64,000 nucleotides of DNA. Origin: Candidatus Omnitrophota bacterium. GTDB lineage: Bacteria; Omnitrophota; Gorgyraeia; Zapsychrales; Zapsychraceae. Positions 1,570-38,397 of this stretch are shown here, in pieces. Position 1 is the first letter of the stretch. The number at the start of each line of letters is the position of its first letter. The position numbers and the translations under genes are program-made. The notes under the pieces are model-generated. The model was not told the DNA's origin. It was given only the letters and a program-made list of their open reading frames with translations, and made no database searches. The stretch spans positions 10,291 through 74,290 of the forward strand of contig JAJDCA010000037.1 of assembly GCA_029261055.1 (NCBI GenBank), read 5' to 3'.

Positions 1570-1623
1570 TAATATCATTAATTACTATTCTGTATTAATC
1601 AATGGTTGAAGGGCAAAACTCTA

Positions 1624-3756
1624 ATGAAACTAGATGCAAAGTCTGTCGGTGTAGAATCTCGTGGCGTAAAAAATACAATGAAATTCGGAATTGGCGATGC
1701 ATCCGTTGTAATTGATATTCTAAGAAATAGACTATATGCTCATCCTATTCAAGCTTTAGTGCAAGAATATTTGTCAAATGCTAGAGATGCTCATAGAGAA
1801 ATCAATTCAAGTCGATCAATAGTTATTACTATACCAACTGAGTTATCGCCAGTTTTTAAAGTTAGGGATTTTGGTCCTGGCGTTTCTCCAGATCGTTATG
1901 AAAATGTGTTCATTCTGTATGGATCAAGCACTAAAAGAGATAACAATATTCAGACTGGTGGATTTGGTATTGGTGCAAAATCTGCATGGTCTTATACTGA
2001 TTCATTTAATGTAACCACCTTTGTAGATGGTACTAAACGTGACTACATAAATCATGTTGGAAACACAAATGAGGGTGAGGCTGATTTAATAAGCGAATCT
2101 GAAACCGATGAGTTGAATGGGACAGAGATACAGATATCTGTTGATTATAATGATATCTATAAGTTTAGAGATGCTATTTTCAGAGCTACATACTTTTGGC
2201 AAGATCAATGTCAATTTTTTGGTATAGATAAAGACAGCTTGCCAGAAAAAATAGGTGTAATTGTTGGAGAAGATGTTGAAATAGTACCCAAAAATCATAT
2301 CAATAAATTATTGGGAATTAATTCTTATAGTAAGTATTTGATTGTTAGTTTAGATGGTATACCATATGCAGTAAAGGATGCCAGCGAAACAATTAATAAT
2401 GTAATGAATATGCTTGATCCTGAATACACTGCTGTTGTTCATTTGGGTGTTGGAGATATTGGTGTTGCTGCTAGCAGAGATTCCATTAATTATGATGATG
2501 AAACAAATGACACGTTAGAATTGGCAATGCATCATACTCTTAGTGTTTTTAATCGTTATATAGATAATAAAGTAAGTTCTATTGGTTCAATATCAGGATT
2601 TTTTGATGCATACAAAACACTAGAGCCTATGTTTGCCGATAATTACCTATGTAAATCTAGTTTACAGTTTAATAATTATAAAATAATATCATGGAATATT
2701 CATAGTGTTGATTTTAATTATATCAACATTGAAGAGGTGCAGTTTCTATATAATAGAAGATCAAGATCCAGAAATATGTATAGATTAACAAGAAATGACA
2801 GGAAAAGTGTTAATTTTAAGGATTTAAATCACTGTATTTATTATATTGACACAGATGAATCAAAACAAAAGATAAATAGAAGAATTCGCACCGCATTAAA
2901 TATAATCAATGATGACTTATCAAATAAAAAGGAATATATTACTGTTTTAGGTTCAAAATTAAATAATAAATCTAAACTAATGCAGATTGTAAAAGATTTA
3001 AAAGCTATTCCTATATCTTCAATAGAAATGGCTCCGGTTCAAAAAAGAACAAATACTAAAAAATTGTCTTGTGAAAGTGTGATAGTTCATTGTGTGTCAA
3101 AAAACAATTACCATACTGCTAAAAAATCTCACTCAAAATATACAAAATATGTTAATCTTTACGAAAATGAAGTTACATATATATATGTGGAGCTTCACAA
3201 AGGTAAATTTCCAGAATCTATACATGAGGGTGAATTATCAGACTGGTTTGAGAAACATTATGATGATCAAAAGTTGGTCTTTTGTGGAGTAGCTAATAGA
3301 ACTGCTAAGAGTGTTAAAAATGATTCAAATTTTATATCTCTGGAAAAATGGGCATCTAAGTTTAAACCTTCTAAAGATATGATCAATGATACAGTTTATG
3401 TTGATTCAATACGCAGAGAGTCTCAAATTGGAGACCTAATAAAAATATTAAAAGATTTGAAATTGAGAAATGCTAAGTTAGTAAAAACGGTGTATAATAT
3501 GAATGAAATTATAAATAGCTTTAATCAAAATCAATTGCCAACAAAAATAAAGGAATTAATAAATTATGACCATGAAAAACATTCAAAAAAAATAAATTCA
3601 ATGATAGATGCTTTGCGGGATGTAAAGCAACAGTATCCAATATTACAATTTTTACTAGATAATACCCATTACAAAATGGGCAATAGGTTTAAGGAAATGC
3701 CGTTTGAAGATTTGTCACTATATATTAACTATAAAAAAAGATTTTTAAAAAAATAG
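1624..3756 (+). CDS. GHKL-superfamily ATPase, Hsp90/MORC-like (HATPase_c)
   Basis: Bergerat-fold motifs in order: N-box EYLSNARDAH, G1 VRDFGPGV, G2 GGFGIGAKSAWSY. ATG at 1624 preferred over the TTG at 1606 used by the ORF track. Confidence 0.65.
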   Translation: MKLDAKSVGVESRGVKNTMKFGIGDASVVIDILRNRLYAHPIQALVQEYLSNARDAHREINSSRSIVITIPTELSPVFKVRDFGPGVSPDRYENVFILYGSSTKRDNNIQTGGFGIGAKSAWSYTDSFNVTTFVDGTKRDYINHVGNTNEGEADLISESETDELNGTEIQISVDYNDIYKFRDAIFRATYFWQDQCQFFGIDKDSLPEKIGVIVGEDVEIVPKNHINKLLGINSYSKYLIVSLDGIPYAVKDASETINNVMNMLDPEYTAVVHLGVGDIGVAASRDSINYDDETNDTLELAMHHTLSVFNRYIDNKVSSIGSISGFFDAYKTLEPMFADNYLCKSSLQFNNYKIISWNIHSVDFNYINIEEVQFLYNRRSRSRNMYRLTRNDRKSVNFKDLNHCIYYIDTDESKQKINRRIRTALNIINDDLSNKKEYITVLGSKLNNKSKLMQIVKDLKAIPISSIEMAPVQKRTNTKKLSCESVIVHCVSKNNYHTAKKSHSKYTKYVNLYENEVTYIYVELHKGKFPESIHEGELSDWFEKHYDDQKLVFCGVANRTAKSVKNDSNFISLEKWASKFKPSKDMINDTVYVDSIRRESQIGDLIKILKDLKLRNAKLVKTVYNMNEIINSFNQNQLPTKIKELINYDHEKHSKKINSMIDALRDVKQQYPILQFLLDNTHYKMGNRFKEMPFEDLSLYINYKKRFLKK

Positions 3757-3766
3757 AAAATGGCAC

Positions 3767-3795
3767 TTGCATTAGTTTAAATAATATGTTATAAT
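3767..3795 (+). promoter_or_regulatory. sigma70-like promoter TTGCAT-N17-TATAAT (extended -10)
   Basis: TTGCAT 3767-3772, 17-nt spacer ending TGT, TATAAT 3790-3795; upstream of RBS AAGGAGAAAC. Confidence 0.6.
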
Positions 3796-3823
3796 ACAAT
3801 AGATATTAGTATAAGGAGAAACA

Positions 3824-4018
3824 ATGGATAATAAAGCTAGGACTGAATTCTTGAAATGTACAATAACTGAAGTTTTGGGTGAGTTAGATGACCTAAACGA
3901 TAAACCTTGCGAAGATCCTACGTTATATGGACTAGAGGAAAAGTTTTTGTTACGTAAAATGGAAATGCTAGAGGCTCATTTAAATAAAATAGAATATCTA
4001 ATTGAAAAAGAAAACTAA
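3824..4018 (+). CDS. small conserved protein, paralog of ORF 61092..61286
   Basis: RBS AAGGAGAAAC; shares pattern EFL..LDD..P..E.F..RM.ML.AHL..EYL with the 61092 ORF. Confidence 0.5.
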   Translation: MDNKARTEFLKCTITEVLGELDDLNDKPCEDPTLYGLEEKFLLRKMEMLEAHLNKIEYLIEKEN

Positions 4019-4074
4019 TGGCCTGTAAATCAAAATCAACATTATAAACAAATCTAAAAGAAAGTGAGAAATCA

Positions 4075-5031
4075 ATGTTAAGCTATCATATTTTACCCAA
4101 TGGAATTAGTCTTAGTTATGATGGAAAAGTTGTTCTGGTCAATAAAAGCGACAAGAGACACGAGAAAATCATAGCCGCGATCAGAAATGGCGAAGAGTCT
4201 ACTATTCCTGGCATCGTTGAGCACATGCAGCGTTATTTTGACAGACATGACGGAGCTGAATTCGTTAATGGTCAAGTTTTAATCGATGGATGCGAAATTC
4301 CACAAGAGCTGAATCATTATATTCTTGGTTTGGCGGATGATGAGCTTCCATTTAATCGCATGATAAAGTTCTGGAGACGGTTACAGAAGAGTAATCGTTT
4401 CGGTGTTAGAGAAAGACTATTTCGGTTTCTTCAGCGACAAGAACATCCTATTACAGAAGATGGTAGGTTTTTGGCTTATCGTCGTGTTGGTGTTATTGAT
4501 AATAAAAAAACGAAAAAGGATGGTGTTGATGTTTTAAAATTCCCAAACAAGACTGAGGGTGAGCGCATTCTGGTTGACTTGCATACTAGGACTATCGACA
4601 ACTCAGTTGGTGAAACTCCCTATATGGACCCTGTGACAGTATGTGACGATCCAAACATTACATGCGCAGAAGGACTACATGCTGCATCATTTAAGTATGC
4701 TAGTGAATTCTACGGTGATGGTGTTTTGGTTGAGGTTGCTATTGCTCCAGAAGATGTAATTTGTGTGCCAAATGATTATGATGGGCAAAAAATGCGCACA
4801 TGCCGCTATGAAGTCATTACAGAAATAGATGGTCCAAGGTCTGGTCCCTCTGTTGATTTGGAACCTAATAATAAGACCAATGATAGTTCGGATGAAAACG
4901 TCATAATGACAGATGAAGAAATTGAGGAAGAGCGACAAAAGGAAAGATGTTGGGATTCCGAACATAACAATATTGATTACGATGATGACAATGGCAATTA
5001 CGATGACGACGATGTTGAGTATAGCTATTAA
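4075..5031 (+). CDS. hypothetical protein with poly-acidic C-terminus
   Basis: 318-aa ORF, RBS GAAAGTGAGAAATCA; C-terminal DYDDDNGNYDDDDVEYSY tail; no motif recognised. Confidence 0.55.
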   Translation: MLSYHILPNGISLSYDGKVVLVNKSDKRHEKIIAAIRNGEESTIPGIVEHMQRYFDRHDGAEFVNGQVLIDGCEIPQELNHYILGLADDELPFNRMIKFWRRLQKSNRFGVRERLFRFLQRQEHPITEDGRFLAYRRVGVIDNKKTKKDGVDVLKFPNKTEGERILVDLHTRTIDNSVGETPYMDPVTVCDDPNITCAEGLHAASFKYASEFYGDGVLVEVAIAPEDVICVPNDYDGQKMRTCRYEVITEIDGPRSGPSVDLEPNNKTNDSSDENVIMTDEEIEEERQKERCWDSEHNNIDYDDDNGNYDDDDVEYSY

Positions 5032-27764: not shown

Positions 27765-27838
27765 TCGCTCTTAGTGTAGTGGCAGCACCAGAAATTCTAA
27801 ACTTCTTAGTCAGGGTTCGATTCCCTGGGGGCGATCCA
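27765..27838 (+). tRNA. suppressor-type tRNA, anticodon CUA (amber), CCA encoded
   Basis: Acceptor TCGCTCT/GGGGCGA, D stem GTGT/GCAC, anticodon arm AGAAA-TTCTAAA-CTTCT (U33, A37), T arm CAGGG-TTCGATT-CCCTG, TCCA. Confidence 0.6.
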
Positions 27839-32197: not shown

Positions 32198-32570
32198 TGA
32201 TAAGTCTTATTGTATTAAGTGGTCTGCAAAAGATAAGAAATATATAGCAACGTGTGCTGAATTTCCTAGTATTTCAGCTTTGTCTATAGATTCCAAAAGG
32301 GCGATGCAAGACTTAGAGGTTATGATTAGTTATATTGAAAAAGAGACCTATCCTCATTATTCAGAGCTTAGCAATCATTTAGAATCTGATATATCTTTTG
32401 AATGCTGTAGTTGTGTACATCGTTATATGATTAACAAATGTAAAGCCCAGGTGTATGAAGAGGTTTTGGAGGCGTGGAATGCACCAATAAATAAAATGAA
32501 GAAATTTGAATACAAAAGATTTATAGATTGGCTAGAAAATAAAGTTAAAGAAAGTAAGTATGTCCAATAA
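32175..32570 (+). CDS. hypothetical protein
   Basis: ORF track. Confidence 0.45.
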   Translation: MEKVLMSNDKSYCIKWSAKDKKYIATCAEFPSISALSIDSKRAMQDLEVMISYIEKETYPHYSELSNHLESDISFECCSCVHRYMINKCKAQVYEEVLEAWNAPINKMKKFEYKRFIDWLENKVKESKYVQ

Positions 32571-32913
32571 AAACAACAAGTCTAAACAGTACATTAAACA
32601 TGCACATAGTCTGGGATACCGTGTTTTAAGTTGTGGATCTGTCAAATCCCCACTTGGAAAAAGAAGAAAACTAAGAGTTAATACTAGCGGATATTTAAGA
32701 TTTAATATTAAATTTAATAAAGATACTGTAAGTATAGATGTCCATCGGCTTGCTGCATTTCAAGTGTATGGAAGTAAAATATTCAATGATAAGTTAGTTA
32801 TTAGACATTTAAACGATTGCAAAACTGATAATAGGAAGAAAAATTTAAAGCTTGGAACTCACTCTGAAAATTTGATTGATAGTTATAAAAACGGCAAAAG
32901 AAACAGCAAGTAA
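32560..32913 (+). CDS. HNH homing-endonuclease-like protein (HNH_3 type)
   Basis: SGYLRFNIKF...VHRLAAFQVYG...IRHLNDCKTDNRKKNLKLGTHSEN. Confidence 0.65.
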   Translation: MSNKNNKSKQYIKHAHSLGYRVLSCGSVKSPLGKRRKLRVNTSGYLRFNIKFNKDTVSIDVHRLAAFQVYGSKIFNDKLVIRHLNDCKTDNRKKNLKLGTHSENLIDSYKNGKRNSK

Positions 32914-32928
32914 AGAACGGAAATATAC

Positions 32929-33372
32929 ATGGGTAATAGTTTAATAAGATGGTGGGTTGTGTTTTGCACAATGGTTGGAATGATTGCCACTTCATTTTTA
33001 TTTGGTGGTGCAGATTTTATTTTACAAAATGATTCAACTTATATATCTTGGTTGATTATTGCCATTTTTACAATTGCATCATTTCATACCGGCTATTTAG
33101 CACATAATAATACTGATAAGTTTAGTGTAGTTAAATATTTTATTATGGCGTGTGGTATGTTGGGGATGCTCGGAACAGTGGTTGGGTTGTCTATGTCGAT
33201 ATCTGGAACACTTGATCAAATAGATGTTAAAAATATAGAGACAACCAAGTTGGCATTATCAAACATTGCAAACGGAAGTGGTGCTGCATTTACAACAACT
33301 ATAGTTGGGCTTGTGTGTGGATTAATGCTTGAGACACAATTAATAGCAATCAATGGTAAATGGAGAGCTTAA
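32929..33372 (+). CDS. MotA/TolQ/ExbB-family proton-channel protein (short form)
   Basis: Multi-TM; conserved GMLGMLGTVVGLSMSI and AAFTTTIVGLVCGLMLE blocks of the MotA_ExbB family. Confidence 0.6.
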   Translation: MGNSLIRWWVVFCTMVGMIATSFLFGGADFILQNDSTYISWLIIAIFTIASFHTGYLAHNNTDKFSVVKYFIMACGMLGMLGTVVGLSMSISGTLDQIDVKNIETTKLALSNIANGSGAAFTTTIVGLVCGLMLETQLIAINGKWRA

Positions 33373-33973
33373 TTTGTTTAATAAAGCAACTAGTTTAATT
33401 TTTATTGATCTATTATTGAATCTTGTATTGACTTATTTAATTCTATTTGCATTGGCGTTCATCCTAATAAATGACACATCTAGCAAGAACCAAACGAAAA
33501 ATAGCAACAACATACTAATATCAATGGCATGGGATCTTGATTGTGACATTGACTTATGGCTACTAATGCCTGATGGTAGTAAAATTTATTATAATAGAAG
33601 AGATAATCCACCAGCGCATCTCGATGTTGATGTAAAGAGATGGAGAAGATACAAGTATCCCGATACAGGTGAAATTTACACTATTAAAAATAATGAGGAA
33701 ATAATCTCTATTCGTGGAATTATGGATGGTAAGTATGTTGTAAATGCACACGCTTACGACTTACACAATGTTAAAGATTCTATAAATGTAGATATATTGA
33801 TTCAAGATGTTGGAAATTCAAAAATTATTTATGCTGGATCTAAGACACTTAGAAGAGAAGTAGTGGAGCAGAGTTTTGTAACATTCACTGTAAATGACCT
33901 AAAAAATGACAACTATGACATATCTGAAGTTTATACAAATAGACCAGAGTACTTTGTTGGGGAAGACTTATAA
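33353..33973 (+). CDS. ExbD/TolR-like membrane protein with divergent periplasmic domain
   Basis: N-terminal LIFIDLLLNLVLTYLILF matches the ExbD/TolR TM block (PFIDVMLVLLIIFMV) and keeps the TM aspartate. Confidence 0.5.
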   Translation: MVNGELNLFNKATSLIFIDLLLNLVLTYLILFALAFILINDTSSKNQTKNSNNILISMAWDLDCDIDLWLLMPDGSKIYYNRRDNPPAHLDVDVKRWRRYKYPDTGEIYTIKNNEEIISIRGIMDGKYVVNAHAYDLHNVKDSINVDILIQDVGNSKIIYAGSKTLRREVVEQSFVTFTVNDLKNDNYDISEVYTNRPEYFVGEDL

Positions 33974-34443
33974 TGGAATTATTTTTAGCAGCAAGCATTA
34001 TATCTCTCATGTTTATTACTGTATTTTCATTAGTTATAACATTTTATAATACACGCTGGGTTCTAATATTTATGATTCCGCTAGTTATTGCAATTGGAAT
34101 GGTTGGTATAACGTCATATAAATCTATGCTTGGTTATCCTGTAAATATCGAATGGCACCAAATGCCTAACAAGTGGACAGCGATATTTTTTCGTGTTAAA
34201 GATAAAGACAGCATTAGTATTTGGCTACTGGAGAACAAAACCACTAGATTAGTTAAATTGCCATACATAAAAAAAGCACAGGATGCACTTGAGGCAGAGA
34301 AAAAGAAGATGGGCAGCGGCACCCCTGTTACGTTTGGCAAAAATAAAAAGTCTAGCAAAGGCGGCAAGGGTGTTGACGGTTGGAAATATGGCGTTAAATC
34401 ATACGGTGATCCAATTAGGGGGATTTTGCCTAAAAAACAGTAG
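33973..34443 (+). CDS. two-TM membrane protein with Lys/Gly-rich C-terminus (third component?)
   Basis: Two N-terminal TM helices; C-terminal KKKMGSGTPVTFGKNKKSSKGGKG. Confidence 0.45.
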   Translation: MELFLAASIISLMFITVFSLVITFYNTRWVLIFMIPLVIAIGMVGITSYKSMLGYPVNIEWHQMPNKWTAIFFRVKDKDSISIWLLENKTTRLVKLPYIKKAQDALEAEKKKMGSGTPVTFGKNKKSSKGGKGVDGWKYGVKSYGDPIRGILPKKQ

Positions 34444-34962: not shown

Positions 34963-35067
34963 AGGCTACAAGGCTAGCTTCCTTCTAATCGGTTTCCAAG
35001 CGGATGGTTGTGGGTTCGACTCCCACCTATAGTTTTGTCTATAGTAGCTCAATGGTAGAGTATCCGC
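34963..35067 (+). tRNA. tRNA-Gly(UCC)-like gene with 3' half upstream of 5' half, embedded in motif copy C
   Basis: The 5' motif part AGGCTACAAGGCTAGC-TTCCTTCTAA is at 34963-34992. The 3' half TTTCCAA-GCGGA-TGGTT-GTGGG-TTCGACT-CCCAC-CTATAG is at 34993-35032. After TTTTG comes the 5' half TCTATAG-TA-GCTC-AATGGTA-GAGT-A-TCCGC at 35038-35067. The halves form a complete cloverleaf. Confidence 0.35.
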
Positions 35068-35112: not shown

Positions 35113-35186
35113 AGGCTATGTAAGTAGCTTCCTTCTAACTAATCAATCTTAGACGTTGAATCAAACTAGCTACCGCAATCTCCTTT
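35113..35186 (+). ncRNA. CUUCCUUCUAA-motif structured element, copy D
   Basis: AGGCTATGTAA-GTAGC-TTCCTTCTAA...GCTAC-CGCAATCTCCTTT. Confidence 0.3.
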
Positions 35187-35203
35187 TTAAGAAAGTTAAT
35201 ATA

Positions 35204-37306
35204 ATGAAGCAAAAAATTGCACTCAAGTACTCCAGCTCCATATTTATCAGCAACAATGACTCTAGTGATCACAATAACGCTATCTTGGTTGCTTCAATTA
35301 ATTCTGAATTGATGCAAAATGGGTTTATGCTAAGTCAAGATTCTAGCACTAAATTAGGTATGCTTAGTGATGTTGAACTTACTGACATATATAAAGACAT
35401 TGTTACTGAAGTCCGTATCCTCGTTGGTAACGATGTAGACTATCAACCAATGTACCCAAACTTTCCCGAACAGGTAATGAATGCTTCTGCATCAGAGCTT
35501 TTTCTTAATGCTATCACCCACTACTGGACACATGGCGAATGGAGTCCTAGCTATGAAAAATTACCTCGTGAAATAAGTTTTGAGAATGTTAATTTTAAAG
35601 AGATAAACTTAATTCATGATGTGGAATTTAATAAAATTTTCGAAACAATACTATCTTCGAATGATTCTATTTCTGACTTTGACAGAGAGACCATTGCGTG
35701 GTTTGTTGACACTCATAAGCAATGCAATTATGAAAACTTAAAAATTCCATTTAAAGAAAATATGTGCTTTCTTGCTGGATTACTTGCTGCAAACAATGAA
35801 GACATATCAAAACTACCACAAACGGCAACAGATGTTCTTAGGATTGCCACTGTGTTTTCTGGTGGAGATATATCATTAGCAGAAAATACTAAATTTAAAT
35901 CATTGCCACGAAAATTGCGTCGAATGTTAGTTTCTGCTTTAGAAAACGTGGCAAATTTAGATGATCTTATGCGACATAGAGGTAAATGGATTCGTCTGTT
36001 TCATAATCTACATATAAGTGAATTGACCAAATCGGCAAACTTGCTTGATATGGTGGAATTGATTAGAAGTGGCAAAAATATTGAAACATTTAATAGTAAG
36101 GTTGAGTTAACTATAGCGAACAAAGATCCGTTAGCCGCTATAGCTCTTTTAAAGACTCGCCCAGGGGATTTTGCTCGTCGCATCAGTTGTGTTTTGGGAC
36201 TAAAAGTTCCTGGACGTAGAACAGTTGTAGAAGAGTTTTTAAAAGTTGCTAATCAGGTATCAACGCGAGTTTTGCTTCAATTGATGGGCAGTTTAAAAAT
36301 TCGTGGAAATTCTACAACCGATAAAAGGGTAATATTTCCCAAGGGTAGTATTCAGAAGGCACAAATTGTCAATACAGAATTACCTAAGCTTGGCATAAGA
36401 GCAACGTTGGCTTTAACCAATGGTGTGAAGGAAGTACTGACTGAGAGATTTTCTAGCCTGGATAATCTTGGATGTGTCTACATTGATCCAGATCTTAAAA
36501 AATGTCCACTGCCATCTCAGCAGCGCAGTGCTTCAGAAGGTTTAATACAGGTTGCAAGAGGTACACATCTGCCAATCGGAGATGATAAAAATACATTAAG
36601 ATTTTTTGTATACTGGATAGGGCAAGATATAGATTTAAGTGCTACATTTCATGATGAAAATTTTAGAACTATTGGAAATGTTTCATATAGGAATCTACAA
36701 AATAAACTATTTGGATCATATCATAGTGGAGACAAGACCAAAGCTCCAAATGGCGAATGTGAATTTATTGACGTAAATATTGACGATGCCGTTAAATCTG
36801 GTACAAGATATGTGGTTATGAATGTGTTAGTGTATAGTGGTCCAAAATTCTCTGAGCACGAAAAATGTTATGTTGGATGGATGACTCGTTCTCAACCCAA
36901 TAGTAATGAGATATTTGACGCTAAGACAGTAGATCAAAAGATTGACCTAGCTTCAGAATGCCTAAACTCTATTCCAGTCGTGTTTGATTTAGTAGAAAGA
37001 AAGGCAATATGGACAGACTTATCAACCTCCAAAAATGTTCAGTGGGGTGGCAATAATGTAGAATCCAATAGGGCTACCATCGAGGACAAGTTGGAAGCTA
37101 TTACTAGCTTAAACAATAAGACTAATTTGTTTGAGCTATTTGAACTACATGCAATGGCTAGATCTACTGCTATTGTAGATGATCCCGAAAATGCAGAGAT
37201 GATATTTTCTGTAGAAAATTGTGGTGACATTACGCCAAGTAACATCATGTTAATAAATTCTGAATATTTGACCGATAGTACAGCAACAAAGAAAGAAAAT
37301 GTATAA
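35204..37306 (+). CDS. large hypothetical protein (700 aa)
   Basis: ORF track. ATG 35204 preferred because TTG 35156 lies inside element D. No recognised motif. Confidence 0.5.
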   Translation: MKQKIALKYSSSIFISNNDSSDHNNAILVASINSELMQNGFMLSQDSSTKLGMLSDVELTDIYKDIVTEVRILVGNDVDYQPMYPNFPEQVMNASASELFLNAITHYWTHGEWSPSYEKLPREISFENVNFKEINLIHDVEFNKIFETILSSNDSISDFDRETIAWFVDTHKQCNYENLKIPFKENMCFLAGLLAANNEDISKLPQTATDVLRIATVFSGGDISLAENTKFKSLPRKLRRMLVSALENVANLDDLMRHRGKWIRLFHNLHISELTKSANLLDMVELIRSGKNIETFNSKVELTIANKDPLAAIALLKTRPGDFARRISCVLGLKVPGRRTVVEEFLKVANQVSTRVLLQLMGSLKIRGNSTTDKRVIFPKGSIQKAQIVNTELPKLGIRATLALTNGVKEVLTERFSSLDNLGCVYIDPDLKKCPLPSQQRSASEGLIQVARGTHLPIGDDKNTLRFFVYWIGQDIDLSATFHDENFRTIGNVSYRNLQNKLFGSYHSGDKTKAPNGECEFIDVNIDDAVKSGTRYVVMNVLVYSGPKFSEHEKCYVGWMTRSQPNSNEIFDAKTVDQKIDLASECLNSIPVVFDLVERKAIWTDLSTSKNVQWGGNNVESNRATIEDKLEAITSLNNKTNLFELFELHAMARSTAIVDDPENAEMIFSVENCGDITPSNIMLINSEYLTDSTATKKENV

Positions 37307-38326: not shown

Positions 38327-38397
38327 GGCTCTGTAGTTTAATGGTAAAACAGCCGATTCTAACTCGGTATTTGCAGGTTCAAATCCTGTCGGAGTCT
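38327..38397 (+). tRNA. second suppressor-type tRNA, anticodon CUA
   Basis: Acceptor GGCTCTG/CGGAGTC, D arm GTTT-AATGGTA-AAAC, anticodon arm GCCGA-TTCTAAC-TCGGT, T arm GCAGG-TTCAAAT-CCTGT. Confidence 0.6.

What the first reader, a model, noticed from the sequence alone, without database searches (positions are those of the whole stretch)
32929..34443. Phage-encoded ExbB/TolQ-ExbD/TolR-like stator pair with a third membrane partner
ORF 32929..33372 carries both conserved TM blocks of the MotA/TolQ/ExbB family (GMLGMLGTVVGL and AAFTTTIVGLVCGL). The next ORF begins with an ExbD/TolR-like TM segment (LIFIDLLLNLVL, Asp retained) but has a divergent ~150-aa periplasmic domain. The third gene encodes a two-TM protein with a Lys/Gly-rich C-terminus. 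These proton-motive-force-driven motors are typical of cells (Tol-Pal, TonB, flagella, Zorya defense); one in a phage suggests energised envelope remodelling, DNA injection or exit, or superinfection exclusion. The short ExbB (147 aa) and the non-canonical partner domains indicate a divergent system.
Basis: partly seen in the sequence, partly recalled or inferred. Interest (0 to 1): 0.8.

Follow-up and report, generated by a model that had tools for sequence, protein, structure and literature searches.

The report
Phage three-gene minimal proton-motor cassette
A phage carries a conserved three-gene membrane cassette that looks like a stripped-down proton-driven motor of the flagellar-stator/Tol/Ton type. 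The same cassette occurs in hundreds of other phage contigs and, in a longer four-gene form, in hundreds of bacterial species, and nobody appears to have studied it.

Summary
Three translationally coupled + strand genes lie at 32929-34443 in a T4-like phage genome. ORF1 (147 aa, 4 TM) is a MotA/TolQ/ExbB family member: Pfam 25.5 bits against a cut-off of 22.9, and its family profile hits only TolQ, MotA, PomA, ExbB and ZorA in the PDB. It has no cytoplasmic domain.

ORF3 is a new 2-TM protein with a periplasmic domain, a Lys/Gly linker and a conserved C-terminal peptide.

The triad is intact in 75 of 80 IMG/VR loci examined, out of at least 177 that encode an ORF2 relative. It is also present, unannotated, in cultured Rhizobium phages (RHph_N34 gp145-147; 16-3 p038/p040/p042). 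At least 572 bacterial species encode an ORF2 relative; the Burkholderiales loci examined carry a long form with a fourth lipoprotein gene, often beside PQQ genes.

Most likely mechanism: a PMF-driven motor of the 5:2 type with periplasm-directed, Ton/Tol-like output. The biological role in infection is unknown. This is a new variant of a known kind.

The parts
32929..33372 (+). ORF1 (g1): minimal MotA/TolQ/ExbB-family A subunit. 147 aa, 4 TM, N-in/C-in, with only about 10-13 residues between TM2 and TM3, so no cytoplasmic domain.
   Evidence: Pfam MotA_ExbB scores 25.5 bits against GA 22.9. The family profile hits TolQ (3e-4), MotA, PomA, ExbB and ZorA chains and nothing else in the PDB. T83 and T124 align to TolQ T145 and T178. 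Cellular homologues carry an insert of about 100 aa in the TM2-TM3 loop that the phage form lacks.
33353..33973 (+). ORF2 (g2): B-subunit-like protein. It has a short basic cytoplasmic N-tail, one TM helix with invariant Asp19 (motif F-I-D-L-L-x-N), a linker of about 12 residues, and a periplasmic TerD-like beta-sandwich carrying invariant acidic residues D65, D67, D93 and E116. The probable real start is TTG 33374.
33973..34443 (+). ORF3 (g3): third partner, 2 TM. The TM1-TM2 loop is positively charged, so the predicted topology is N-out/C-out. It carries an LGYP motif after TM2, a small periplasmic domain (..IxxWV..PRxYxxPY..), a Lys/Gly-rich low-complexity linker and a conserved C-terminal peptide (WKYxVxSYGDPIxGxLPxK).
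   Evidence: It is conserved next to g2 in phage loci and in cellular operons. The topology statistics are: 2 TM in 71 of 82 members, loop net charge +1.1, N-tail -0.7. It has no relative in Pfam, PHROGs, NCBIfam, PADLOC or the PDB.

Best explanation
The three genes encode one inner-membrane machine: a minimal proton-motive-force motor of the MotAB/ExbBD/TolQR (5:2) type.

Proposed working. ORF1 would form the pentameric ring. It is a bare 4-TM bundle that keeps the two channel-lining Thr positions of TolQ. ORF2 would form the central dimer, with its TM Asp19 as the proton-binding site. Its TerD-like, probably Ca2+-binding, beta-sandwich would sit just above the membrane in the periplasm.

ORF1 has no cytoplasmic domain, so the work must be delivered to the periplasm. 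ORF3 is the likely force transducer, playing the role of TonB or TolA without being homologous to either. It would be anchored beside the ring by two TM helices and reach out through a flexible Lys/Gly linker. Its conserved C-terminal peptide would engage an envelope target.

The phage would use this to energise a process in the host's outer envelope during infection, in a Ton/Tol-like way (uptake across, or maintenance of, the outer membrane).

Status of each step. Shown: family membership of ORF1, the invariant Asp and topology of ORF2, the TerD-like fold, and conservation of the triad. Inferred: 5:2 assembly, proton flow, ORF3 as transducer, and the biological role.
For: ORF1 is a MotA_ExbB family member above the Pfam gathering score. 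Its family profile finds only TolQ, MotA, PomA, ExbB and ZorA in the PDB. ORF1 T83 and T124 align with TolQ T145 and T178.

ORF2 follows ORF1 with overlapping or abutting codons. It has one N-in TM helix (85 of 86 members). Its Asp is invariant across 54 sequences at 21-53% identity to it and nearly invariant across 101. The N-terminal family profile places this Asp opposite ExbD D25 and TolR D23.

The g1-g2-g3 order is kept in this window and in L001, L003, L004, L005 and L014. It is also kept in 75 of 80 IMG/VR loci, whose flanks otherwise differ. Only these three genes are universally shared.

The same three genes plus a lipoprotein form an operon in 51 of 52 complete bacterial loci.

All predicted soluble parts face the periplasm.

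In 17 of the roughly 80 viral loci an SbmA/BacA inner-membrane importer gene (465 bits) lies within 3.2 kb downstream of g3. In 7 of them it is directly adjacent. By my own knowledge, microcin J25 uptake pairs a TonB-ExbBD-energised outer-membrane step with SbmA, so this is the same kind of pairing.
Against: - No structure or complex prediction of ORF1, or of the assembly, could be run, so the 5:2 stoichiometry is an analogy.
- The Pfam score of ORF1 is only 2.6 bits above the cut-off.
- The similarity of the ORF2 TM helix to ExbD/TolR scores 1-4 bits, below shuffled controls that reach 11 bits. The N-terminal profile finds nothing in the PDB.
- The TolQ-T145-equivalent Thr is Lys in the Burkholderiales cellular homologues, and the TolQ E173 equivalent is absent.
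- ORF3 has no detectable similarity to TonB or TolA, and its topology rests on the positive-inside rule only.
- The SbmA linkage is absent from this window, and the lipoprotein partner is absent from most phage loci.
- Nothing tested here bears on when the genes are expressed or what phenotype they give.
Confidence: 0.55

Rival explanations
1. Interference device. The cassette does no productive work of its own. It mixes with, or competes against, the host's Tol, Ton or homologous g1-g4 motors. This would block the entry routes that other phages and bacteriocins use (superinfection exclusion) or disable an envelope-based defence.
For: The ORF1 form is truncated, with no cytoplasmic domain, as expected for a dominant-negative subunit. 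The cassette sits among early/replication-region genes rather than lysis genes. It also occurs in the temperate phage 16-3, where exclusion functions are common. By my own knowledge, many phages and colicins need TonB or TolQRA to enter; the literature retrieved covers TolQR use by filamentous phage.
Against: All three genes are kept together, and the putative proton-binding Asp and channel Thr residues are conserved over deep divergence. That argues for a working, autonomous machine rather than a decoy. A decoy would not need its own B subunit and transducer.
Confidence: 0.17
2. Controlled proton leak. ORF1 and ORF2 form an unplugged or conditionally opened proton channel. The phage uses it to lower or tune the membrane potential, for host shut-off, lysis timing, or countering depolarisation-based abortive infection. 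ORF3 and the Ca2+-binding TerD-like domain would act as regulators.
For: The linker between the ORF2 TM helix and its periplasmic domain is about 12 residues and poorly structured, with no evident MotB-type plug helix. One relative in 54 gives a weak MotB_plug hit. The phage encodes rIIA, a protein annotated as a lysis inhibitor. By my own knowledge, unplugged MotAB leaks protons and arrests growth.
Against: A constitutive leak would be harmful in the hundreds of bacterial species that keep the homologous operon. The elaborate conserved periplasmic parts of ORF2 and ORF3 are more than a leak needs. The cassette is not next to holin or endolysin genes in any locus inspected.
Confidence: 0.12
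3. Zorya-like defence module carried by the phage. A ZorAB-type motor would sense envelope perturbation by a competing phage and signal inward.
For: The only PADLOC and NCBIfam hits of ORF1 are ZorA models.
Against: These hits cover only the shared MotA/ExbB TM core and score far below the cut-offs (21.7 bits against 100; 17.6 against 700). ORF1 has no cytoplasmic tail at all, whereas ZorA signals through a long cytoplasmic tail. ORF2 and ORF3 give no PADLOC hit, and ORF2 gives no Pfam hit to a peptidoglycan-binding domain. No ZorC/D/E-like effector is conserved nearby.
Confidence: 0.03

Closest known systems
TolQ-TolR-TolA (Tol-Pal) and ExbB-ExbD-TonB (Ton) inner-membrane motors
   Same: Three adjacent genes encode an A subunit of the MotA/TolQ/ExbB family, a single-pass N-in B subunit with a TM Asp, and a third membrane-anchored protein with a flexible linker that reaches into the periplasm. 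TolQ is the best PDB match of the ORF1 family. The TolQ T145/T178 and TolR D23 equivalents are present. All output is periplasmic. The cellular version adds a lipoprotein gene, as tol-pal does.
   Different: ORF1 has 4 TM helices (MotA-like topology) and no cytoplasmic domain. ORF2 has a TerD-like beta-sandwich instead of the ExbD/TolR alpha/beta domain and gives no PF02472 match. ORF3 has two TM helices and no TonB_C or TolA domain, and shows no detectable homology to TonB or TolA.
MotAB/PomAB flagellar stator units
   Same: The A subunit has a 4-TM N-in topology. The B subunit is single-pass with the Asp near the cytoplasmic end of the helix. MotA and PomA chains are among the PDB hits.
   Different: There is no cytoplasmic torque-generating loop; the TM2-TM3 loop is about 10-13 aa against about 100 aa. 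ORF2 gives no Pfam hit, so no OmpA-like peptidoglycan-binding domain was detected. No flagellar genes are nearby, and there is a third partner.
ZorAB (Zorya anti-phage defence)
   Same: It is a non-flagellar MotAB-like pair involved in phage-host conflict, with weak profile hits to the shared TM core.
   Different: There is no ZorA tail, no ZorB peptidoglycan-binding domain and no ZorC/D/E. Scores are far below the family cut-offs.
TerD family (tellurite-resistance/Ca2+-binding beta-sandwich; PDB 2kxt, 2qz7)
   Different: There is no sequence-level TerD Pfam match. To my knowledge TerD proteins are soluble and cytoplasmic. Here the fold is fused to a motor-type TM helix and predicted to be periplasmic.
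Unannotated homologues in cultured phages: Rhizobium phage RHph_N34 gp145-gp147 (and P10VF, RL38J1, AF3 and others), and Rhizobium phage 16-3 p038/p040/p042
   Same: The same three families occur in the same order (HMM E-values 5e-21, 3e-41 and 7e-11 for RHph_N34). RHph_N34 gp145 also passes the Pfam MotA_ExbB cut-off (23.0 bits).
   Different: Identity to the window proteins is only about 30%. All are annotated 'hypothetical protein'. In 16-3 the cassette is interrupted by two extra small genes (p039, p041).

Membership tests
MotA/TolQ/ExbB proton channel family (Pfam PF01618) - ORF1 | Profile match at or above the curated gathering score | tested here: met
   25.5 bits against 22.9, covering residues 64-133. 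Relatives P0004 and P0005 and the g1 genes of L001, L002, L014 and L015 carry precomputed PF01618 hits (weak in L003 and L013). RHph_N34 gp145 scores 23.0 bits.
MotA/TolQ/ExbB proton channel family - ORF1 | Two C-terminal TM helices carrying the conserved channel-lining Thr residues (TolQ T145 and T178) | tested here: met
   The profile alignment to E. coli TolQ puts ORF1 T83 opposite T145 and T124 opposite T178. T123 and T124 are invariant in alignment A3. T83 is kept in the phage forms but is Lys in the Burkholderiales homologues.
MotA/TolQ/ExbB proton channel family - ORF1 | Cytoplasmic domain between the outer and inner TM helices (present in MotA, ExbB, TolQ and ZorA) | tested here: not met
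   Only about 10-13 residues separate TM2 and TM3. Cellular homologues have an insert of about 100 aa at this point. This is a difference in architecture, not in family membership.
5:2 rotary motor (A5B2 complex) | Pentamer of A around a dimer of B, with the B Asp facing the A Thr residues | not testable with these tools
ExbD/TolR (Pfam PF02472) - ORF2 | Profile match to the family | tested here: not met
   No hit at E<=1 for ORF2. None of 54 relatives hits PF02472 at E<=0.01. N-terminal segments alone give none at E<=10.
ExbD/TolR/MotB-type B subunit (functional class) - ORF2 | Single N-in TM helix with a conserved Asp near its cytoplasmic end, encoded directly after the A subunit | tested here: met
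   D19 is invariant. A single TM is predicted in 85 of 86 members with N-tail net charge +1.2. The gene abuts or overlaps ORF1. The Asp aligns with ExbD D25 and TolR D23, but the alignment score is not above shuffles.
ExbD/TolR/MotB - ORF2 | Periplasmic ExbD/TolR alpha/beta domain or OmpA-like peptidoglycan-binding domain | tested here: not met
TerD (Pfam PF02342) - ORF2 C-terminal domain | Sequence profile match | tested here: not met
   No TerD Pfam hit in ORF2 or in 54 relatives. The only weak hits are DUF2135 (3 members) and PPC (1 member).
TerD fold - ORF2 C-terminal domain | Structural superposition on solved TerD proteins | tested here: met
TonB / TolA - ORF3 | Single N-terminal TM anchor, and a TonB_C or TolA C-terminal domain detectable by profile | tested here: not met
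   Two TM helices are predicted. No Pfam, NCBIfam or PHROG hit reaches significance. The family profile finds nothing meaningful in the PDB (best E 1.2).
Zorya (ZorA/ZorB plus effectors) | ZorA score above the NCBIfam cut-off, a long ZorA cytoplasmic tail, and ZorC/D/E neighbours | tested here: not met
   Scores are 21.7 against 100, 17.6 against 700 and 11.8 against 500 bits. ORF1 ends 7 residues after TM4. ORF2 and ORF3 give no PADLOC hit, and no conserved fourth gene exists in phage loci.

The most novel reading that the evidence does not exclude
Phages carry their own autonomous, miniature PMF-driven envelope motor. It would be the smallest MotA/ExbB-type ring known (147 aa, no cytoplasmic domain), with a Ca2+-binding TerD-like axle subunit and a force transducer unrelated to TonB or TolA. 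They would use it to power an outer-envelope process of the infected cell. In one phage clade it is paired with a phage SbmA/BacA importer, which would make a virus-encoded two-membrane uptake route. The same motor family, with an added lipoprotein, would be an unrecognised fourth branch of Tol/Ton-like machines in Proteobacteria, tied to PQQ/quinoprotein dehydrogenase biology.
Probability: 0.35. Interest if true: 0.85.

Novelty: new variant of a known kind. Interest (0 to 1): 0.72.

Why it matters
Motors of the 5:2 type (MotAB, ExbBD, TolQR, GldLM, ZorAB) are the only known way for bacteria to deliver inner-membrane energy to the periplasm and outer membrane. The searches here found only a passing annotation of a phage 'ExbB' as an auxiliary metabolic gene (PMC11361711) and nothing on this module.

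This cassette would add three things:
- A very small A subunit with no cytoplasmic part, useful as a minimal model for how such motors turn.
- A new B-subunit head (TerD-like) and a new kind of third partner.
- Evidence that many phages bring such a motor with them, including genetically tractable Rhizobium phages and the classic temperate phage 16-3. That opens direct experiments on what envelope work a virus needs done.

The cellular four-gene counterpart next to pqq and PQQ-dehydrogenase genes is itself an unstudied system in common freshwater and soil Betaproteobacteria.

Tried and rejected
- DNA and ORF1-protein searches of 50,697 GenBank phage records found nothing useful. The window ORF2 found only a marginal Rhizobium phage hit. 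A more central family member (P0019) was needed to find the cultured-phage homologues.
- Word-indexed protein searches with single ORFs found only 2-3 relatives. The exhaustive profile search was needed.
- The first AF2 model of ORF2, from 3 sequences, had pLDDT 64 and gave mostly meaningless Foldseek hits (flavivirus E proteins). Only 2qng was plausible. It was superseded by the deep-alignment model.
- The N-terminal TM profile of ORF2 found nothing against the PDB and nothing relevant against Pfam. A direct HMM comparison with E. coli ExbD and TolR aligned the Asp, but at scores below shuffles. Homology of the TM helix is therefore not claimed.
- I tested whether the ORF2 domain is related to the neighbouring 716-aa protein, which has a 'DIDLSA' motif. 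hhalign found no similarity.
- I tested whether phage loci have a conserved lipoprotein after g3, as an analogue of cellular g4 or of an o-spanin. Only 5 of 78 loci do, so it is not part of the phage module.
- Zorya membership was rejected.
- The related-loci run on genome contigs with the broad alignment failed for lack of a conserved stretch and was redone with a narrower alignment. The 80 bacterial loci returned are therefore taxonomically narrow (Burkholderiales), and the PQQ linkage statistics are not phylogenetically independent.
- The AFDB50 fold library was not available.
- The promoter and terminator scans were uninformative, at or near shuffle expectation.
Full report
**1. What is there**

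The window is a phage genome segment. Nearly all long ORFs are on the + strand and GC content is about 34%. It encodes rIIA, a 1139-aa DNA polymerase, a DnaB-like helicase, a primase, a UvsX-like recombinase and an exonuclease, and it carries seven tRNA genes. No GenBank phage record is similar at the DNA level.

The three ORFs of the finding exist as described: ORF1 32929-33372 (147 aa), ORF2 33353-33973 (206 aa) and ORF3 33973-34443 (156 aa).

They are translationally coupled. ORF1 ends with TAA at 33370-33372. ORF2 can start at ATG 33353, but TTG 33374 is the more likely start. It has a GGAG box 8 nt upstream and gives the N-terminus MFNK.. that relatives have. The ORF2 stop and the ORF3 start overlap as TAATG.

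They lie between a RecQ-type helicase gene and an HNH endonuclease gene upstream, and a 716-aa gene and a peptide deformylase gene downstream. A related phage contig, L001, has the same order.

**2. ORF1 is a MotA/TolQ/ExbB protein, in a minimal form**

Pfam MotA_ExbB matches residues 64-133 at 25.5 bits, against a gathering score of 22.9.

I built a profile from ORF1, five phage relatives and three bacterial relatives. In the whole PDB it finds 18 sequences at E<=1, and all are A subunits of 5:2 motors: TolQ (best, 3e-4), MotA, PomA, ExbB and ZorA-type chains.

In the alignment to E. coli TolQ, ORF1 T83 and T124 fall on TolQ T145 and T178. By my own knowledge these are the channel-lining threonines.

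Hydropathy gives four TM helices (10-28, 39-57, 67-85, 116-134). The N-tail is positive and the first loop acidic, which is a MotA-like N-in topology.

The phage proteins have almost nothing between TM2 and TM3, and only 7 residues after TM4. The bacterial homologues have about 100 extra residues in that loop and a C-terminal extension. The phage form is therefore essentially a bare membrane bundle.

**3. ORF2 is B-subunit-like by architecture, but not an ExbD/TolR family member**

No Pfam, NCBIfam or PADLOC family matches ORF2.

An exhaustive profile search found 1104 cluster representatives at E<=1e-3. Most are about 200 aa and match over nearly the full length.

In 54 diverse members (21-53% identical to ORF2) the TM Asp (D19) is invariant and N23 is nearly so. 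The other invariant positions are W60, D65, D67, L90, D93, E116 and G126.

One TM helix is predicted in 85 of 86 viral members, preceded by a basic tail. This is the N-in/C-out topology of MotB, ExbD and TolR.

The N-terminal profile places the Asp opposite ExbD D25 and TolR D23. The scores are only 1-4 bits, below shuffled controls, and neither the PDB nor Pfam is hit. The resemblance is therefore one of position and context, not demonstrable homology.

With a 101-sequence alignment, AlphaFold2 gives a confident model (pLDDT 83.5). It shows a TM helix, a disordered linker of about 12 residues and an all-beta sandwich.

**4. ORF3 is a conserved third partner of a new family**

ORF3 has no relative in any profile library or in the PDB. 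It is nevertheless always next to ORF2.

An alignment of 30 phage and bacterial members shows these features in order:
- two TM helices;
- an LGYP/GWP motif right after TM2;
- a small domain (..I..WV....PR.Y..PY..);
- a charged, often Lys/Gly-rich linker of variable length;
- a short conserved C-terminal peptide ending in LP.K.

The TM1-TM2 loop is net positive (+1.1 on average; at least +1 in 58 of 74 members) and the N-tail is net negative. The C-terminal part is therefore predicted to be periplasmic.

**5. The cassette is widespread**

*Close relatives.* Four phage contigs have the triad at 37-58% identity. A more distant phage-like contig, L014, also carries the triad.

In the 80 best loci, 75 have g1-g2-g3 in order on one strand. 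The five exceptions lack a detectable g3 (4 loci) or g1 (1 locus); some of them lie at a contig end. The median g1 length is 155 aa.

Clustering of all flanking ORFs shows that only these three genes are universal. Recurrent neighbours are typical of T4-like phages: late sigma factor, SbcD-like nuclease, helicase, tail tube, peptide deformylase and a ClpP-like protease.

*Cultured phages.* About 27 Rhizobium and 2 Sinorhizobium phage records contain the ORF2 family, all annotated 'hypothetical'. RHph_N34 gp145/146/147 and 16-3 p038/p040/p042 match my g1, g2 and g3 profiles. gp145 passes the Pfam MotA_ExbB cut-off.

*Literature.* Searches found reviews and surveys of 5:2 motors and of TonB/TolA-like transducers that do not mention this family or phage versions. 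They also found one paper that lists a phage 'ExbB' as an auxiliary metabolic gene.

**6. The bacterial counterpart**

At least 572 species genomes encode an ORF2 relative; the limit was reached. The 80 best are Burkholderiales (Hydrogenophaga, Limnohabitans, Polynucleobacter, Ideonella, Methylibium and others). Alpha- and gammaproteobacterial members also exist.

The bacterial operon has four genes:
- g1, a MotA/ExbB-like protein of about 255 aa;
- g2;
- g3, about 170 aa, ending in ..LP..LPEK;
- g4, a lipoprotein of about 230 aa.

All four genes are present in 51 of 52 loci with full flanks.

In these loci pqqBCDE lies directly upstream in 19 of 52, and a PQQ-dependent dehydrogenase lies within 6 kb in 28 of 52. 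A distant member (L012/L013, 45% identical to the Hydrogenophaga ORF2 homologue; organism not named) also has a PQQ dehydrogenase next door. One alphaproteobacterial locus does not. The sample is taxonomically narrow, so this link is a lead, not a result.

**7. How it most likely works**

*Shown:*
- an A-type subunit;
- an adjacent single-pass protein with an invariant membrane Asp;
- a conserved third membrane protein;
- all soluble parts facing the periplasm;
- co-inheritance of the three genes over deep divergence, in viruses and in cells.

*Inferred, by analogy with TolQR/ExbBD/MotAB:*
- ORF1 forms a ring around an ORF2 dimer.
- Protons pass via D19.
- The resulting movement is passed to ORF3, which carries it through its flexible linker to an envelope target bound by its C-terminal peptide.

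Because the phage ORF1 has no cytoplasmic face, a flagellar- or Zorya-type inward output is excluded. The short ORF2 linker keeps the TerD-like head close to the membrane, where it may gate or regulate the channel, possibly with Ca2+.

The biological purpose in infection is not established. One clue is that 17 of the roughly 80 viral loci carry an SbmA/BacA inner-membrane importer gene (465 bits) within 3.2 kb downstream of g3. It is directly adjacent in 7 loci, and in 4-5 loci small lipoprotein genes lie in between. This is the kind of pairing seen in Ton-dependent uptake followed by SbmA transport. The window itself has no SbmA gene.

I give the motor mechanism with periplasmic, Ton/Tol-like output a confidence of 0.55. 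Rivals are interference with host Ton/Tol or exclusion (0.17), a regulated proton leak (0.12) and a Zorya-like defence (0.03).

**8. Comparison and novelty**

The system works like Tol/Ton. By membership, only ORF1 belongs to a known family. ORF2 fails the ExbD/TolR and OmpA tests and has a TerD-like fold without a TerD sequence match. ORF3 belongs to no known family.

This is a new variant of a known kind of machine. It is undescribed as far as the searched literature shows, and it is common in phages.

**9. Weak points**

- The Pfam score for ORF1 is marginal.
- There is no model of ORF1 or of the complex.
- The TerD assignment rests on a predicted structure.
- Topologies come from a simple hydropathy and charge analysis.
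- Viral status of the IMG/VR contigs was checked only through neighbouring genes.
- The function is inferred from context alone.

Noticed in passing
window 27765-27838 and 38327-38397: Two tRNA genes have a CTA anticodon (amber-suppressor type; ARAGORN labels them 'Pyl'). Rfam confirms both as tRNAs (45 and 65 bits). TAG still ends 21 of 69 long ORFs, so any recoding would be partial or stage-specific.
   Followed up: partly
window 35002-35065 (+): A Y RNA-like element matches Rfam YrlA at 37.3 bits (E 1.9e-6), below the gathering score of 69. It lies in the 370-nt gap just upstream of the 716-aa gene, and its tRNA-like T-arm was also picked up as a terminator-like hairpin. At the corresponding position, between the cassette and the peptide deformylase gene, the related phage contig L003 encodes a Ro60 homologue (TROVE, vWA_Ro60), and it carries RtcB about 7 kb upstream.
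   Followed up: partly
window 35156-37306 (+): A 716-aa protein matches NCBIfam 'MXAN_6230/SCO0854 family RING domain-containing protein' at 360 bits (below the 600 cut-off) and phrog_33734. It has no PDB relative and no detectable similarity to ORF2. A 698-aa gene sits in the same place after the cassette in L001.
   Followed up: partly
L016-L095 (bacterial loci); for example L016 2212-8000 and L008 6226-8825: There is a four-gene bacterial operon: a MotA/ExbB-like gene, the ORF2 homologue, the ORF3 homologue and a lipoprotein gene. It lies directly after pqqBCDE in 19 of 52 Burkholderiales loci and within 6 kb of a PQQ-dependent dehydrogenase in 28 of 52. This looks like an unstudied motor linked to quinoprotein or PQQ biology.
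   Followed up: partly
L172 6194-7165, L126 6137-7114, L161 6035-7006 and 14 other viral loci: A phage-encoded SbmA/BacA-family inner-membrane transporter (Pfam 465 bits) lies next to or near the cassette in 17 viral loci. In L115, L128, L131 and L143, one or two lipoprotein genes of 70-78 aa lie between g3 and it.
   Followed up: partly
L176 (Rhizobium phage 16-3) 2774-4635; L177 (RHph_N34) 3040-4654: In the temperate phage 16-3 the cassette is split by two extra small genes (p039 between g1 and g2, p041 between g2 and g3). In RHph_N34 a 42-aa lipoprotein-like ORF (gp148, LSSC lipobox) follows g3.
   Followed up: partly
window 27604-27740 (+): Rfam reports a tRNA match of 43.9 bits spanning 137 nt that ARAGORN did not list. 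It may be a tRNA with an insertion or intron.
   Followed up: no
window 32560-32913 (+) and 1606-3756 (+): An HNH homing-type endonuclease gene lies immediately upstream of the cassette (Pfam HNH_3; phrog_59 and phrog_959). HNH genes also precede the cassette in L001 and L003. An rIIA homologue lies at 1606-3756.
   Followed up: no
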